Shown here piece by piece: positions 33,001 to 42,000 of a stretch of 64,000 nucleotides of DNA. The DNA lies in IMG/VR virus record IMGVR_UViG_2703718861_000013. One strand, 5' to 3'. This stretch comes from a virus. Its lineage: Duplodnaviria > Heunggongvirae > Uroviricota > Caudoviricetes. A program made the position numbers. Each line of letters starts with the position of its first letter. Within the stretch, counting starts at the first letter, position 1.

Positions 33001-36000
33001 GTAGAGGCATAAACTGGCAGTGGGCTTATCACTTCATCTTTTTCCAGTTCCCAGGTACGGGCAATTTCCGCCAGCTTGCTGGAATAAATTTCAATCTTAC
33101 CGGAAGGTGTTTTAAGTGGATTTGCCTCGGGGTCGTCACGAAATGCTTTGTAGGCGACAAAATGACCATTGGGATCTTTACGCTTATAGATACCCATTTT
33201 TTTCAGTTCGTCGTAAGACGGTAACGCCGGATCTTTGGCAAGCATTTTGGCGTACAGATGTTGTAACCATTGTTCCTGCGTGCGACCTTCAGTGAACTTT
33301 TGATAGACGTCAGGTCCAAGACGTTTCGCGACTTCACTCAGGATCCAGTAAATCGGTTTGCGTTCGAATTTTTCGCTGGTGACAGGCTGGAGGAAAATGA
33401 GATATCCCATGTTACCGGCGTAGTCGTTAGGAATAATATCTTCCTGCTCAACGGTCATCAGGTCTGGCAGCAGAATGTCGGCATATTTTGCCGATGAGGT
33501 CATAAAGTTTTCGATGACCACAATCATTTCGCATTTCGATTCGTCCTGCAGAATTTCATGCGTTTTGTTGATGTCAGAATGCTGATTAACGAGGGTATTT
33601 CCCGCGTAGTTCCAGATGGACTCCATTGTCAGACGGATGGATGGACTTGAAGTAGTTGACTCAATGCTACTTAAGGTCCTGATATGACTGACATTAACCA
33701 TGATAATACTGTATATCCATCCAGTTCTTTCTCTGGGTCTCCCTATCTGTATCAGCAAGTCTGCACCTCAAGTCCTGACACAAGGCTGACACAAATCAAT
33801 CTACTCAGCGTAGCTAAGCCTCAGTTAGTCCGTAGAGCCAATGGTCGATATACTATCCGCTTCAGACTCAAGGGACAGACCATCCCGTTTCTTTCAGTAT
33901 CGACCCGAAGCACAGACAGGAGAGTAGCCACAATGCGTCAGAGAGAGCTTGCAGCCACAGCTAAGTCCTTCATGTTGGATAGGCCTGATGTCTCGCTACA
34001 GGAGCTTACGGACCACCTCCGGTCTATGGCTGAGCAGTTCCTGACAGACGCCAGTGATGACTACTGGAATGGACTTGAGGTCGCTACTCTGGTGGACGAG
34101 AAGTCCAACCTGAAGGAGCTAGCCGCTACGCAAGCCTTGAGTCTGGACCAGCAGAAGGGCATAAGGTTAGCGCTTGAAGTCCTGACCGCAGCACAGCAGA
34201 GGGTAGACACTGGTGATGCCTCTGGTCTGATTAAGCTGATTGATGATAATAACCATACTGATTACTCAACTATAGGCGACTCTACGTCAATTCTGAAGAA
34301 TGAGCAGGGGGATAGACCAGCAGTTTTCACACAGGAGCGTCAGCCATCTGTGGTTTTTTCAAGCCTAGTGTCCTCGCTGCTGGCTGAGAAGGTCCAGACC
34401 CTGAAGTCCTCCAGCTACAAGGACCTGTCGTCCTCACTGAATACCGTCTCTCGGTTCTTACCTGAAGACATGGACCTGATGTCCCGCTCTGAGTGGCTGG
34501 CTGTCAGGGACTCCATGCTGGCTGCTGAGGTGAGACCATCGACAATCAACAAGCTGCTGACTAAGGCGAAGATGTGTCTTGATTATGGCCTGATGAATGG
34601 GCAACTTGAGGGCCGCAACCCTATTGAACGGATGAAGCTGACCAAGGATATCGACTCCAAGCGCAGAGCGTTCACAGACGAGGAGCTGGAGAGACTTCTG
34701 GTCCGTGTTGAGTCTGAGTATCAGTTCACACGACACACGGCTCACACGACCTCTGAGGCCCGTAGATGGGCGTCTCTGGTGTCTGTGGTCACTGGCGCGA
34801 GGTCTGCTGAAGTCTGCCACCTGACTAAACGTGACATTGTCACCTTAGACAACGGTTTAACCTGCATCGACATCAATGAAGATGGGGACGGTAAGTCTGT
34901 GAAGAACAAACATTCAGTCCGACTTGTACCGCTGACCGATGGGGCCTGTGGGTTCGACCTGAAGTCCTTCCTTGAATGGGTAGACACGCAGCCTGACGAC
35001 GGCGGTCCTCTCTTCGGGATGACTCCGAGCGCCTACTCTAGCTGGTTTAACTCTAGGGTCCTGACTGAGGCACTGGGAGACGCTGAGAACGTTTCTCTCC
35101 ATAGTCTGAGGCATTGGCTGGCGACCCGAATGAAAGAGCGTGGAGTCAATCTGGTGGACGCTCAGGGCATCTTAGGCCATAGCAGTCAGTCAATTACGTA
35201 TGACCTGTACGGGAAAGGACACGCTGTTGGTAGGCTGGCTGAGGTGCTGAAGACAGCTTTACTTTAAGTAGGAAGACCCAAGGTGGAGACCATATACGGC
35301 TTGATGGTTGAGACCTTGGGTCACTGAAGTCTGACTGAAGTTAGGGAGGGTGATAATAATCATAATCCCTCCTGACTATAGGCCCACTGGTTCGCCTTCG
35401 GCTGTCAGACTCTAAGTCTGTATGTGGTCTTATTTAAACTGGTTCCCTAACTCCAGTACTCCAAATTCCTATGGTCTCCTCTTGACATTCCTGTTTAACT
35501 GTGAGTCGCCTCTGGTCTCTCTTTATATATACTTCCTTAATTCCTGAGGCGTCTTTAGTCCTTGACATCCAGTCCAGCCTGTGAGTCACATCCTGTCGCG
35601 CTACTGTATGCATCACCAGTGATGGACTTGATTATCACTATAGGGGAACCAACTAATTCAACTACAGGAGATACTCTATGGCACGACCAATCGCAACTCA
35701 CGACAACACGTTCACCAAAGCCTACTTGCAGCAGCACTGCGGGGACCTGCTGTCATTCGATGGTCAGGGCGACCTGAGTGGTTGGCTGGATGATGTCCTT
35801 ACTGGTGCTGGTCGCCTGAACGAATCAATGGCAAGCAATACCAAGCCTGTCAGCCCATACTTGATTCTGACCCAACTACTAACGCACGACACATTAACTG
35901 TAAGCGCTGTACAGGAGTCCCTGAGCCGTAAGCGTGTTGCCTTGGGTGAACCTATGGTTTCAACTCGCTACGCTCGCTACGTCTATGCTACCGTCGTCAG

Positions 36001-39000: not shown

Positions 39001-42000
39001 CTATCGTCGATATGCTGGGAACAGACATCGCCTACTACAACGGTGAAGACAAGGGTGTATTCATGCTGGCTAAACGCTTCACGGCTCTGAGCTTCGGTTG
39101 CTTCCGTCACGATGGCGAGAATATTACGGTCGTCCTTTCACGTGATGGCGACTCTCAGTCCCACGACTTGGAAATCCTCGGTAAAGTGTTCGTTGTCGCT
39201 GAAGCTGCTACGACCATCAAGATGGGCACTGGCTCAGCTACTGCCGTCCTGCCTGTAGTCAAACGCCTGAAGTTCACCAAGACCGAAGCGTAAGACCAAT
39301 GGGTAAGAGCATTAGTAAAGGCTTCAGGTCCATCGCCAAGGGCCTGACAGGTGGTGGTGGGACTCAAGGTGGGGCTTCGGTCCCGCCTCCTGTAGCTCCT
39401 CCTGTAGCTCCTCCAGATGACGCTCAGCAAGCTGTAGTCGATACCCAAGGTCAGGAGACCGAGGGAGGTAAGACCATGAGCAGAGGTAAGTCTGGACTGA
39501 ATATCAGCAGGACTTCAGGTGGTGGCCTGTCACTGTGATTAAGACATCTATACAGCCTGTGGAGGGTGGACGATATCAAGCAACAATCTGGATGACACGC
39601 AGAGTCTATAAGCGGCTATGCTGGTCACTGGCTGAAGCTGAACAGTGGGTGAGACGTAAAGTGCCTACCGTTCAATCGTTCCAATCATCATGATAACTAT
39701 GGTCTGGACCAATGGTCTGGACCTTTGTTTTGTACTAGTTATCTAGTGCAGTAGTACAATAGACGAAGGAGGCTTTATGTCTATGACTTCCGCAGACCTA
39801 AGGTCCCTCCTGACTCTGGTCTATAAACTCGTGTTCCTCTCTGTGGGTCTCTATATGGTCCTCTCCGGTCGACTCGGTGTGAATGTATTCGACACTCTGT
39901 CTAAGGCTGTGGGTGGGCTTCTGGGGGCTTAGGTTTGGACTCACAGTGGGACCGATGGTTTCTGACAGAAAAATGTGAATGACCATCTAATACATTAAGC
40001 CAGCAGACTTCCCCCATAGCCCGCCTCAAGTCCAGACCGAGGCCACCGGGGGGCTGACCAGCCGTCTAGACATCCCGTCTAATGACACAAGGCTGACACA
40101 AAGCCTGACACAAAGTCCTTGACTCAATGCAGGACCTCAGGCCTACTAAGGGTCCGCTTCAAGTCCTTGAAGTTCCAGATGAACTTAATGGGCACATCCA
40201 GTTTATCTTTGCCGCGGACGCCGTCGCGGATTGCCGTCATTTGCGGACCATGATCGATAGCATCTGTCCAGCTGAAGCAGGAGATTGACATTTTGACCGG
40301 ATTATCCAGCACCGGCAGGCGTTCTATGGTAATGGTATAGGTCGATTCACGCGCGCCACTATTTCCGCCGCTGATGCCGACATTGCCCGTCAAAATAGGT
40401 AACATAGCAATAGCGCGTGCAGTCAGTTCGCCGTTTGCCTGGCGTTGCGGCCCCCAGCCCTGGCAGATATAAGCGGGTTTTGCTGTGCCAATTTCACGCG
40501 CCAGTTTGATGATACGGTCTACCGGGATACCGGTAATTTGCGAAGCCCACTGCGGCGTTTTCGCTGTGTTATCATCACCTTCACCAAGAATATAGGCTTT
40601 ATAGTGACTATTTTTGGGTGCATCTGCGGGTAAGGTTTTTTCGTCATAGCCGACGCAGTATTTATCGAGAAAAGGTTGATCAACGAGATTTTCGTTAATC
40701 AATACCCAGGCAATACCCGCAACCAGCGCGGCATCGGTGCCCGGGCGAATAGGGAGCCATTCATCTTCACGACCAGCAGCCGTATCGGTATATCGCGGAT
40801 CGATAGCAATCATTTTGGCGTTCGATTTCTCGCGCGCTTTTTCAAGAAGATAAGTGATGCCACCGCCGCTCATGCGGGTTTCTGCCGGGTTGTTACCAAA
40901 CATCACGACCAGCTTGCTGTTTTCAATATCCGTGGTGCTGTTGCCATCATTACTGCCGTAGGTGTAGGGCATGGCACAGGAAATTTGCGCGGTGCTGTAG
41001 GAGCCATACTGATTGAGTGAACCGCCGTAGCAGTTCATCAGGCGTTTGACCGCCGAGGCTGATGGCGAAGAGCGGGTCATATTGCCGCCAACGATCCCCG
41101 AAGAGTACTGAATATATACAGCCTCATTGCCATATTGTTCGACGGTTTTCTTCAGGCTACTGGCGATAGTATCCAGGGCTTCATCCCAGCTAATCCGTTC
41201 GAATTTGCCTTCGCCGCGTTTGCCCACGCGTTTCATTGGGTAATTCAAGCGATCGGGATGATTAATACGCCGACGGATGGATCGACCACGCAAACAGGCG
41301 CGTACTTGATGATTGCCATACTCGTCGCTGCCGGTGTTGTCAGTTTCCACCCAGGTGACTTCATTATCTTTAACATGTAGACGAAGTGCACAGCGGCTAC
41401 CACAGTTGACGGAACAGGCACCCCAGATCACTTTTTCGCTGGCCTGTTGTACCGCTGCCGCTGCACTGCGCAGGGTGAACGGTAAAGAAAAACCGCCTGC
41501 AGCCAGCGCCAGAGAACCTATCGCGGTTGATTTAACGAGTGTTCTGCGGCTGATGCCCACCATTCGGTCATTTTTGGACATAACTCACTCCCTGTTCTTT
41601 ATCGTTATATAAATGTTTATATATTGAATATTTAGCGCGCTAACAATAGAGGGAGTCTACCCATTTTGGGTTAAGAATTATTAATCCATATCAATAGAAG
41701 GGTATGAGTAATAAGGTGGGATTATGTTGTATGTTCAAATCGCCGGATGTGTCGTATCCGGCGTTCAGTCGATAATGTATTACTGCGGTTCGGCAGGCGC
41801 GCCATCCTGGGTAGACTGCGCGGGAGCAGAGACGTTACCGCTGGTGGTGCGGGTATAGAGAATTTTATGCGTATCATTAGCGCAATGGCCGACGACCTGG
41901 GAATCAGGCTGATCAACCTGGTCATTGGGTACAATACTTAACGTGAAGCTGCTTTCGGGTACGCCATTATTGATAATGCGCTGTGATATATCGCTCTGTA

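What the first reader, a model, noticed from the sequence alone, without database searches (positions are those of the whole stretch)
35481..39946. Over-represented 9-mer GACTCACAG / CTGTGAGTC, twice in a bipartite CTTGACAT-N10-CTGTGAGTC arrangement
Seen: CTGTGAGTC occurs at 35499-35507, 35579-35587, 36625-36633 and 37792-37800. Its complement GACTCACAG occurs at 38268-38276 and 39938-39946. That is six copies in 6.56 kb. The expectation for a given 9-mer on either strand is about 13,100/262,144 = 0.05. The first two copies are each preceded at exactly 10 nt by CTTGACAT (35481-35488, 35561-35568). These form an 80-bp-spaced pair just upstream of promoter A. GACTCAC is also the -11 to -5 segment of the T7 promoter. 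Copies 5 and 6 read GGACTCACAGT and sit in intergenic DNA before the capsid-sized gene and after the last ORF. Inference: these are binding sites for an island or helper regulator, or degenerate/variant phage-RNAP recognition elements. The TTGACA part may alternatively be a host sigma70 -35 box, although no good -10 follows at 17 bp.
Basis: seen in the sequence. Interest (0 to 1): 0.55.

Follow-up and report, generated by a model that had tools for sequence, protein, structure and literature searches.

The report
Phage-end-like 9-mer in satellite island
The repeated 9-mer is real, but only the two copies in a tandem repeat before one gene belong to a conserved two-box DNA element; the other four are lineage-specific look-alikes in a small E. 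coli island built from sequences copied from the ends and promoters of T7-like (K1F-type) phages.

Summary
All six exact copies and both CTTGACAT-N10-CTGTGAGTC arrangements are present as described. They are far above the base-composition expectation.

They are not one class of site.
- Copies 1-2 lie in an 80-83 bp tandem repeat, which has three units in most related islands.
- Across 17 unit variants, TTGACA and TGAGT are invariant and always the same distance apart. The first three bases of the 9-mer, the spacer and the flanks vary.
- This array sits between a phage-derived hairpin and a LexA-box-like site plus a K1F-type phage promoter. It is inherited together with ORF122.
- Copy 3 lies in a covarying 5'UTR hairpin. 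Copy 4 is coding. Copy 5 flanks a terminator-like hairpin inside an 18-nt insertion that resembles the copy 6 region. Copy 6 sits where K1F has a GACCTACAGTGG short repeat.
- None of copies 3-6 is kept in more distant islands, and sister islands with the same array carry 0 or 2 exact copies.

The 9-mer is not a phage-RNAP promoter. It matches 9-13 of 23 positions of the T7 promoter and lacks TATA.

The context is more interesting than the motif. The island mimics the Kayfunavirus promoters and concatemer junction, and the junction mimic is split across its att site.

My best reading is that the array is the host-side (SOS-gated) control region of ORF122, built from phage-end-like sequence. A packaging-site or decoy role remains possible.

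The parts
35478..35557 (+). Tandem repeat unit 1. It holds box 1 CTTGACAT (35481-35488), a 10-nt spacer, the 9-mer CTGTGAGTC (35499-35507), then the AT-rich block TCTCTTTATATATACTTCCTTAATTCCT.
   Evidence: Relatives have three such units of 80-83 bp. Box conservation is shown.
35558..35601 (+). Tandem repeat unit 2, the last and truncated unit. It holds box 1 (35561-35568), a 10-nt spacer and the 9-mer (35579-35587). TGTGAGTCACA here is a 5+1+5 palindrome.
35602..35621 (+). LexA-box-like site TACTGTATGCATCACCAGTG, between the last unit and promoter A.
   Evidence: the pattern has two exact matches in the 64 kb, both in the island; kept in L001-L005, L151 and L152; L147 and L170 have CTGT-N8-ACAG at the same place.
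35626..35648 (+). K1F-type phage RNAP promoter A (ACTTGATTATCACTATAGGGGAA), in front of ORF122.
   Evidence: matches the Peacock phiOR-type promoter.
35678..36046 (+). ORF122, the gene that is co-inherited with the array.
   Evidence: PHROG 23123, function unknown. Model pLDDT 78, with no fold match in the PDB.
36625..36633 (+). 9-mer copy 3, inside the stem of a conserved 5'UTR hairpin (about 36600-36698) upstream of the KilA-N gene.
   Evidence: The central TGA is CTG or CC in relatives, with compensatory partner changes.
37792..37800 (+). 9-mer copy 4, within the codons T-V-S-L of ORF163.
   Evidence: lost in L003, L009, L017 and L018. L146 has no exact 9-mer anywhere in the locus.
38268..38276 (+). 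9-mer copy 5 (reads GACTCACAG on +), at the 3' flank of the terminator-like hairpin 38230-38254 and upstream of the ORF331 ribosome-binding site.
   Evidence: It lies in an 18-nt insertion specific to the window/L001 lineage. Relatives read GACCCACAG or GACTTCAAG.
39938..39946 (+). 9-mer copy 6 (reads GACTCACAG on +), 6 nt upstream of the concatemer-junction mimic.
   Evidence: It is kept only in part of the ynfE/F-site family. L017 has CCTAAAGT there, and K1F has GACCTACAGTGG at the equivalent place.
35345..35372 (+). Hairpin GGAGGGTGATAATAATCATAATCCCTCC, copied from the region downstream of phiOR in Kayfunavirus phages.
   Evidence: most of the 157 phage records matched by the query hit this hairpin; 27 of 28 identical to Peacock, E = 6.5e-8.
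33726..33755 (+). Mimic of the phage terminal-repeat right boundary plus the class II pause signal (TCTTTCTCTGGGTCTCCCT|ATCTGTATCAG).
   Evidence: score 35, 0 of 200 shuffles; conserved in all island families.
39953..40044 (+). Mimic of the phage concatemer junction across the left terminus (CGATGG...GACCA|TCTAATACATTAAG...CCCCCATAGCCC...CCAGACC).
   Evidence: K1F junction alignment scores 36-50 against a null maximum of 29-34.
36055..36077 (+). K1F-type phage RNAP promoter B (CCTAAACTATCACTATAGGGAGA).
33707..33726 (+). Second LexA-box-like site (TACTGTATATCCATCCAGTT), directly after the -10-like GATAAT upstream of the integrase gene.
   Evidence: Conserved in L001-L007, L146 and L147, with a variable centre.

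Best explanation
The six exact 9-mers are not one functional class.

(1) Shown: the setting. They lie in a 6.56-kb integrase-bearing island that copies cis-elements of K1F-like (Kayfunavirus, T7-group) phages. These are two phage-RNAP promoters, the hairpin found downstream of phiOR, and a concatemer-junction mimic whose left and right halves sit at opposite ends of the island. The two halves would be joined only after excision.

(2) Shown: the conserved element. Copies 1-2 belong to an 80-83 bp tandem array. The conserved element there is TTGACA-N14-TGAGT(C) (box 1, exactly 10 nt, box 2), not the full 9-mer. The array always accompanies ORF122. It lies directly upstream of a LexA-box-like site and phage promoter A.

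(3) Inferred: what the array does. I read it as the host-side control region of ORF122. Box 1 (a -35-like box) and box 2 would be recognised together, either by RNA polymerase holoenzyme or by a dimeric factor. LexA would shut the region, and the phage-type promoter A would bypass it once a helper phage's RNA polymerase appears. A matching LexA-like box sits at the integrase promoter.

(4) Shown or inferred: the other copies. Copies 3-6 are lineage-specific look-alikes. Each lies inside another feature: a covarying UTR stem, a coding sequence, a terminator flank with a short insertion, and a phage-type short repeat next to the junction mimic. They share the word because the island's non-coding DNA uses the vocabulary of phage genome ends. 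The phage left end is TCTCACAGT, its short repeats are ACCTACAGT, and its terminal-repeat right end is CTYTGAGTC.
For: - Island context.
- Array structure and conservation footprint. All 17 variants share invariant TTGACA and TGAGT with fixed spacing, while the spacer takes several unrelated forms.
- Co-inheritance with ORF122. L006 and L007 lack both.
- LexA-like boxes: the pattern has two exact matches in 64 kb, both at the head of island transcription units. They are conserved with variable centres.
- L146 keeps the array but has no CACTATAG promoter core upstream of its ORF122 homologue.
- Copy 3 covaries within an RNA stem: (7 pairs with double changes); fold z = -2.05.
- Copies 4, 5 and 6 are not conserved.
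- No concerted variant in sister islands.
- Collapsed copy number is ordinary for the island's composition.
- Phage-like word bias.
Against: - No acceptable -10 hexamer (TAnnnT) lies 16-18 bp after TTGACA. Candidates are GTCACA and TCACAT, and the promoter scan finds nothing at the units.
- Whole 80-bp units, including an AT-rich block, are duplicated. A simple promoter would not need that.
- Box 2 (TGAGTCA) is not a known E. coli promoter element.
- The LexA boxes are recognised by pattern only (CTGT-N8-CCAG) and have not been scored with a curated matrix.
- An exact 9-mer at five positions counting the array once (four if copy 5 derives from copy 6) is still unusual under low-order backgrounds. 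At least 5 copies of some 9-mer occurs in 0 of 200 order-1 runs and 8 of 200 order-3 runs. A recent lineage-specific function cannot be excluded.
- The array units also resemble the phage terminal-repeat right end. That fits the packaging rival as well as it fits shared descent.
Confidence: 0.45

Rival explanations
1. Packaging-site or terminus mimic. The array units, and perhaps the dispersed 9-mers, imitate the right end of the helper phage's terminal repeat (G[G/T]GACTAT-N8/9-CT[C/T]TGAGTCTCT|). The helper's DNA-maturation machinery (terminase, with or without paused phage RNAP) would bind them. They would act as extra cleavage or entry sites for island concatemers, or as decoys that interfere with helper packaging.
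For: - CTGTGAGTC is 8 of 9 identical to the phage right terminus CTCTGAGTC/CTTTGAGTC. Its complement contains CTCACAGT, which matches bases 2-9 of the phage left end.
- The L146 unit carries the exact CTCTGAGTC. It is that island's best local match to the last 30 nt of the K1F terminal repeat (score 29, 0 of 200 shuffles).
- A relaxed bipartite pattern hits only the terminal-repeat end and one other left-end site in phage Peacock, and only the two array units in the 64-kb window.
- The phage element shows the same pattern of two conserved boxes with a variable spacer.
- The array adjoins the phage-derived hairpin, and the island clearly mimics other junction parts.
Against: - Sister island lineages keep the junction mimic but lack the array (L006, L007, and the tRNA-Gly family L008-L010 and L018). 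It is therefore not needed for packaging in general.
- The spacing differs (8-9 nt against exactly 10), and box 1 differs (GACTAT against TTGACAT).
- The units lack the ATCTGT pause signal that follows the real boundary.
- The positional homologue of the phage left end in the islands is TCTAATAC, not the 9-mer.
- The exact 9-mer is absent from the phage genome examined.
- No packaged island DNA was observed.
Confidence: 0.2
2. All six 9-mers are operator sites for one island-encoded or helper-encoded DNA-binding regulator.
For: - Six exact copies lie in 6.5 kb on both strands, against 0.05-0.45 expected.
- Four of the six are in non-coding DNA near gene starts or ends.
Against: - Copies 3-6 are absent or altered at the homologous positions of related islands.
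- L146 has 0 and L147 has 2 exact copies, with no co-varying replacement word.
- Nothing is conserved beyond 9-10 nt around the copies.
- Copy number outside the array does not follow any island gene.
- ORF122 shows no recognisable DNA-binding fold.
- The candidate regulators (KilA-N, Rha, AP2) are swapped between islands that keep the array.
Confidence: 0.08
3. Iteron-type replication origin. Each unit holds two about 21-bp-spaced sub-repeats ((G/C)ACATCCNGTCC) plus an AT-rich block. The units recur every ~8 helical turns, as in origins bound by an initiator.
For: - Sub-repeats are visible in the units. An example is GGACCGGATGT at 21-nt spacing on the minus strand of L001 unit 2.
- The AT-rich block is the part of the upstream region still recognisable in distant ORF122 homologues (L144, L169).
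- The tandem copy number varies between 2 and 3.
Against: - The island has no initiator, helicase or primase gene.
- As I recall, T7-group replication origins are phage promoters followed by AT-rich DNA. Here promoter A points away from the array.
- Sister islands lack the array.
- L006 has a different 46-bp triplication at the same place. This suggests a repeat-prone region rather than a fixed origin.
Confidence: 0.07
4. The sites are degenerate or variant phage-RNAP promoters.
For: GACTCAC equals -11 to -5 of the T7 promoter.
Against: - Only 9-13 of 23 positions match, with 1-4 of 10 in -4..+6 and 0-2 of 6 in -17..-12.
- Four of the six point against the direction of all the genes.
- Diverged units keep GACTCA but vary the following bases (CAG, GAG, GGT).
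- The island's real promoters are K1F-type.
- Related islands keyed to T7 or T3 carry full consensus promoters (L169, L144).
Confidence: 0.02
5. No function at all. Even the array is a neutral tandem duplication of phage-derived filler DNA, and the 9-mer count is chance plus biased composition.
For: - The collapsed count is ordinary.
- The region is prone to repeats (L006).
- The window island has lost one unit without obvious consequence.
Against: The boxes are invariant and the spacing is fixed across 17 variants whose spacer and flanks have diverged freely. The array persists in at least about 80 E. coli genomes.
Confidence: 0.1

Closest known systems
Concatemer junction and terminal-repeat boundaries of T7-group phages (T7/T3 pac elements; here Kayfunavirus K1F, Peacock, EcoDS1, IMM-002, phiYIO1-1)
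   Same: - The island carries a junction-like left boundary with the CCCCATAG block.
- It carries a right boundary followed by ATCTGTAT, the class II RNAP pause signal.
- It carries the hairpin found downstream of phiOR.
- The 9-mer family CT(C/G/T)TG(A/G)GTC resembles the phage right terminus.
- Its complement resembles the left terminus and the short flanking repeats.
   Different: - The exact 9-mer does not occur in the phage examined.
- The island's positional equivalent of the left terminus reads TCTAATAC.
- The array units lack the pause signal and have different spacing.
- The roles of these phage elements in packaging are taken from the older T7/T3 literature as I recall it. They were not tested here.
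SOS-controlled sigma-70 promoters (a LexA operator next to a -35/-10 promoter)
   Same: - The -35 hexamer TTGACA is perfect and invariant.
- A conserved CTGT-N8-(A/C)CAG site lies just downstream of the last unit.
- A second such site abuts a -10-like GATAAT at the integrase gene.
   Different: - There is no consensus -10 at 16-18 bp.
- The whole unit is tandemly repeated.
- The second conserved box, TGAGT(C), is not a known promoter element.
Phage satellites that mimic helper packaging and expression signals (P4, PICIs, PLEs, PICMIs)
   Same: - It is a small integrase-bearing island with helper-specific cis-signals and a few helper-related structural or assembly genes. One is a gp7.3-like ORF79 (PHROG 1320).
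- Related copies occur in 313 of 5426 complete E. coli genomes.
   Different: - The putative helper is a virulent T7-group phage.
- Induction would work through the helper's own RNA polymerase promoters.
- The packaging-site mimic is split across att.
- No such satellite family turned up in four literature searches.
- Excision, replication and packaging were not shown.
Early promoter cluster A1-A3 of T7-group phages
   Same: Two or three tandem units, each with a TTGACA box, point into the first gene after the end region. Phage counterparts were read.
   Different: The phage promoters have good -10 hexamers (for example TAGTAT) and wider spacing. The island units do not.

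Membership tests
T7-group phage RNAP promoter | A conserved 23-bp sequence from -17 to +6, with (T)ATA at -4..-1 and G-rich +1..+3 | tested here: not met
   the six sites match 9-13 of 23 positions, and 1-4 of 10 in -4..+6. 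The two true island promoters carry CACTATAGGG.
T7-group phage RNAP promoter | A specificity region at -11..-8 that matches the cognate polymerase of the helper type | tested here: not met
   The helper-type consensus is CTATCAC. The 9-mer has the T7-type GACTCAC. The AT-rich -17..-13 segment is absent (0-2 of 6).
Sigma-70 promoter | A -35 hexamer close to TTGACA | tested here: met
   TTGACA is invariant in all 17 unit variants.
Sigma-70 promoter | A -10 hexamer (TAnnnT) 16-18 bp downstream | tested here: not met
   One search finds no promoter-like site at the units. By inspection, the hexamers at 16-18 bp are AGTCAC, GTCACA and TCACAT.
LexA (SOS) operator | A 16-bp core CTGT-N8-ACAG (20-bp consensus TACTGTATATATATACAGTA, from memory) | tested here: inconclusive
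   35602-35621 and 33707-33726 read CTGT-N8-CCAG; L147 and L170 read CTGT-N8-ACAG. The pattern has two exact matches in the window, and the sites are conserved with variable centres. They were not scored with a curated matrix, and binding was not tested.
T7-group terminal-repeat right boundary (pac cleavage region) | The sequence G(G/T)GACTAT-N8/9-CT(C/T)TGAGTCTC(T) at the end of the repeat | tested here: inconclusive
   The units have TTGACAT-N10-CT(G/C)TGAGTC. The L146 unit is a significant local match. The window units are weaker matches. A relaxed pattern is specific to these sites.
T7-group terminal-repeat right boundary (pac cleavage region) | Followed directly by the class II pause signal ATCTGT(T/A) | tested here: not met
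   The units are followed by ACATCCTGTC or GCCTCTGGTC. The true mimic with ATCTGTATCAG is at 33726-33755.
T7-group genome left terminus | Positional homology to TCTCACAG... at the junction, 26 nt before CCCCATAG | tested here: not met
   the aligned island sequence is TCTAATACATTAAG at 39986. Copy 6 lies 40 nt upstream of it.
Iteron-type replication origin | Direct repeats plus an AT-rich unwinding region, next to or serving an initiator gene | tested here: inconclusive
   Repeats and AT-rich blocks are present. No initiator, helicase or primase was detected.
Phage satellite (PICI, P4 or PLE-like) | An integrase, plus helper-specific induction and packaging signals | tested here: met
   Integrase. 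K1F-type promoters. Junction mimic.
Phage satellite (PICI, P4 or PLE-like) | Helper-dependent excision, replication and packaging | not testable with these tools
   No excised or packaged form was found. The contigs L147 and L019 are not circular, and L147 carries short host flanks.

The most novel reading that the evidence does not exclude
The TTGACAT-N10-CTGTGAGTC units, and the wider CTNTGRGTC / GACTCACAGT word family, are working imitations of the helper phage's genome ends. On this reading a previously undescribed family of E. coli satellites hijacks, or sabotages, the transcription-coupled DNA maturation of T7-group phages. Phage RNAP would start at the island's K1F-type promoters, run across the excision-joined att junction and pause at the copied ATCTGTA signal. 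Terminase would then cut at terminus-like boxes. The tandem pseudo-ends before ORF122 would serve as extra entry sites or as decoys.
Probability: 0.2. Interest if true: 0.8.

Novelty: new variant of a known kind. Interest (0 to 1): 0.45.

Why it matters
The exact 9-mer alone is a weak signal, and it should not be pursued as a six-site regulon.

Following it up gave three testable results.
- A sharply conserved two-box element with fixed spacing lies in a tandem array that travels with one gene.
- Paired LexA-like operators sit at the integrase gene and at ORF122. This suggests dual control by the host SOS response and by the helper's RNA polymerase.
- The island's non-coding DNA is assembled from K1F-type promoter, hairpin and concatemer-junction sequences, and the junction mimic is completed only by excision.

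If the island is a satellite of virulent T7-group phages, it would give direct access to the cis-requirements of T7-type packaging, which remain poorly defined. It would also be a natural case of induction by a helper's own polymerase.

Tried and rejected
- Phage DNA search with 4.9 kb of the island: no match at E <= 1e-5. Only short-query searches revealed the hairpin.
- IMG/VR scan for TGGACTCACAGTGG: 116 stretches, and only two (L035, L121) match the island, both island DNA rather than phage ends. The scan for the bipartite pattern found copies of this island (L139, L142) and four stretches with no similarity to it.
- Rfam scan of the island: nothing.
- ORF122 as the binder. Its model is acceptable (pLDDT 78), but no PDB fold matches. 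The only matches are uncharacterised phage proteins. This neither supports nor refutes binding.
- ORF331 as a capsid protein. The model is poor (pLDDT 42). There is no PDB profile hit and no similarity to the Peacock major capsid protein. 'Capsid-sized' remains only a size statement.
- Integrase arm sites. The arm-type repeats are more likely CTGACACAA, next to att. Five of the six 9-mers are too far from att.
- From memory I compared the boxes with CRP, PhoB, sigma-32, sigma-E, sigma-54 and IHF consensus sites and with T7 primase sites. None fits.
- Concerted evolution of a variant 9-mer in sister islands: not seen.
- Genome and metagenome scans with the ORF122 profile returned only copies at least 97% identical, so they added no diversity.
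- Literature: four successful searches found no description of satellites of T7-like phages. A fifth found no open-access account of T7 pac sites. Two further calls (7, 52) failed on term length.

Full report
**Observation**

The 9-mer CTGTGAGTC/GACTCACAG occurs six times in the window, at exactly the coordinates and strands reported. It occurs nowhere else in the 64 kb. Dinucleotide shuffles give a mean of 0.42, and none of 100 reaches six. CTTGACAT-N10-CTGTGAGTC is exact at 35481 and 35561. Within the island, the expected number is 0.05 from base composition, 0.19 under an order-3 Markov model and 0.45 under order 4.

**Setting**

- The copies lie in a 6.56-kb island bounded by the direct repeat AGTTCCAGATG (33608 and 40171). 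The island interrupts a DMSO/selenate-reductase A-subunit gene.
- All island genes are on the + strand. They are an integrase, ORF122, a KilA-N protein, ORF55, ORF163, ORF331, a T7 gp7.3-like ORF79 (PHROG 1320) and two small ORFs.
- Related islands occur in 313 of 5426 complete E. coli genomes, at this site and at a tRNA-Gly site. The middle gene is interchangeable: KilA-N, Rha, AP2, HNH and others.

**The island copies cis-elements of K1F-like (Kayfunavirus) phages**

- Its two CACTATAG promoters match the phage consensus (T/A)AACTATCACTATAGG.
- A 28-nt hairpin (35345-35372) is 27 of 28 identical to the hairpin downstream of phiOR. That hairpin accounts for most of the 157 phage records matched.
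- 33726-33755 is the island's best match to the phage terminal-repeat right boundary plus the ATCTGTATCAG pause signal (score 35, 0 of 200 shuffles). This element is kept in every island family.
- 39953-40044 aligns with the K1F concatemer junction across the left terminus. Scores are 36-50 against a null maximum of 29-34 in five islands.
- The junction mimic is therefore split by integration and would be rebuilt by excision.

**The array (copies 1 and 2)**

- Most relatives have three 80-83 bp units, and the window has lost one.
- More diverged arrays (L146, L147, L170) read CTTGACA(T/C)-N10-(CTG|CTC|ACC)TGAGTC.
- Over 17 distinct unit variants, TTGACA and TGAGT never change and the spacing is always exactly 10 nt. 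The spacer takes unrelated forms (TCCTGTTTAA, CCAGTCCAGC, TTGGTCTTTT, CCTCCTATTC and others), and the flanks vary.
- The conserved element is therefore TTGACA-N14-TGAGT(C). The first three bases of the 9-mer are not part of it.
- The array always accompanies ORF122. L006 and L007 lack both, and L006 has a different 46-bp triplication in the same place.
- The last unit is followed by TACTGTATGCATCACCAGTG and then by phage promoter A. The LexA-type pattern ACTGTAT-N6-MCAGT has two exact matches in the window: here, and directly after a -10-like GATAAT upstream of the integrase gene. Both sites are conserved in relatives with variable centres.

**The other four copies**

- Copy 3 lies in a conserved 5'UTR hairpin. 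In relatives its central TGA is CTG or CC, with compensatory changes in the partner strand. Seven pairs show double changes, and the fold has z = -2.05.
- Copy 4 encodes T-V-S-L of ORF163. It is lost where the protein reads VR, CK or CV.
- Copy 5 abuts a terminator-like hairpin. It exists only because of an 18-nt insertion in the window/L001 lineage. Other islands read GACCCACAG or GACTTCAAG. The inserted patch resembles the copy 6 region.
- Copy 6 is kept only in part of one island family. L017 has CCTAAAGT there, L147 has neither, and K1F has the short repeat GACCTACAGTGG at the equivalent position.
- Sister islands with the same architecture contain 0 (L146) or 2 (L147) exact copies and no concerted substitute.
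- With dependent copies collapsed to about four origins, the count is not unusual for this composition.
- The island shares a strong phage-like word bias. CCTNNAGTC/GACTNNAGG occurs 16 times against about 1.3 expected, and is also enriched in Peacock.

**Relation to phage ends**

- The Kayfunavirus terminal repeat ends in G(G/T)GACTAT-N8/9-CT(C/T)TGAGTCTC(T). It is followed by ATCTGTAT, and the left end begins TCTCACAGT.
- CTGTGAGTC is 8 of 9 identical to the right terminus, and its complement contains CTCACAGT.
- The L146 unit is that island's best match to the K1F repeat end (0 of 200 shuffles).
- A relaxed two-box pattern finds only the phage end sites and the two array units.
- This shows common vocabulary and probably common descent. 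It does not show common function. Island lineages that keep the junction mimic lack the array. The units lack the pause signal. The positional equivalent of the left terminus is TCTAATAC.

**Promoter idea**

- The six sites match 9-13 of 23 positions of the T7 promoter, with only 1-4 of 10 in the initiation region. Four of them point against the genes.
- Related islands keyed to other helpers carry full T7-type (L169) or T3-type (L144) promoters.
- The sites are therefore not phage-RNAP promoters.

**Verdict**

- The 9-mer as such is a lineage-specific by-product.
- The two-box array is real. I read it as the host-side, probably SOS-gated, control region of ORF122, built from phage-end-like DNA (confidence about 0.45). 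The missing -10 is the main weakness of this reading.
- A packaging or decoy role is the most interesting alternative (about 0.2).

The T7/T3 packaging mechanisms, the LexA consensus and the promoter rules used here come from my own knowledge of the older literature.

Noticed in passing
window 33726-33755 and 39953-40044: The mimic of the helper phage's concatemer junction is split across the att site. The left boundary with the CCCCATAG block is at the island's right end. The right boundary with the ATCTGTATCAG pause signal is at its left end. A complete junction would exist only after excision or in concatemers.
   Followed up: yes
window 33707-33726 and 35602-35621: These are the two exact matches to the pattern ACTGTAT-N6-MCAGT in the 64 kb, one at the head of the integrase gene and one at the head of ORF122. 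They are conserved across islands with variable centres, which suggests SOS control.
   Followed up: partly
window 35345-35384; L015 1040-1080: The phage-derived hairpin occurs in opposite loop orientation in different phages. Peacock has the same orientation as the island and phiYIO1-1 is inverted. This looks like a flip-flop, as expected if the hairpin is extruded and copied.
   Followed up: no
window 36080-36700: A roughly 620-bp non-coding stretch lies downstream of promoter B. It holds a 44-bp direct repeat (36336-36379 and 36532-36575, 95% identical). It also holds a conserved CGCCTCTGAGTCTG about 20 nt after the promoter start. No Rfam match was found.
   Followed up: no
L144 2140-2170; L169 585-610; window 35626-35648: Related islands carry promoters of different phage specificities: T3-type AATTAACCCTCACTAAAGGGAGA (L144), T7-type CGACTCACTATAGGGAGA (L169) and K1F-type in the window. 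The family seems to retarget helpers by swapping promoters.
   Followed up: partly
window island, 6 sites; also L002, L006, L007, L146: CCTGAAGTC also has six copies. Unlike the reported 9-mer, it is the top 9-mer in all five ynfE/F-site islands tallied (window, L002, L006, L007, L146). At least two copies lie in the integrase reading frame as Leu-Lys-Ser.
   Followed up: no
window 33776-33795 and 40083-40117: Tandem (C)TGACACAA(A/G)G repeats, two on the left and three on the right, flank the att core at an 11-12 bp period. They are likely integrase arm-type sites.
   Followed up: no
L006 2300-2430: At the position of the array, this sister island has a different 46-bp unit (GTCTTATTTAAACTGCGTCCTAAACTCAGGTCGCTCCAACTTAGT) repeated about three times. 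It also has a different downstream gene.
   Followed up: no
L016 700-740; L143 730-770: Kayfunavirus phages carry a second copy of the two-box repeat-end element (GCGACTAA-N9-CTTTGAGTC-TAC-ATCTG). It lies about 550 bp inside the genome, just before the first early gene.
   Followed up: partly
window 38298-39293 and 39299-39538: The 'capsid-sized' ORF331 has no detectable similarity to any capsid protein (Pfam, PHROGs, PDB profile, Peacock major capsid protein), and its model is poor. The adjacent ORF79 is a clear relative of T7 gp7.3 (PHROG 1320, E = 1.8e-11).
   Followed up: partly
window 39701-39723: A strong terminator-like hairpin (GGTCTGGACCAATGGTCTGGACC followed by a T-run) lies after the 52-aa ORF. 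It resembles a late terminator placed before the junction mimic.
   Followed up: no
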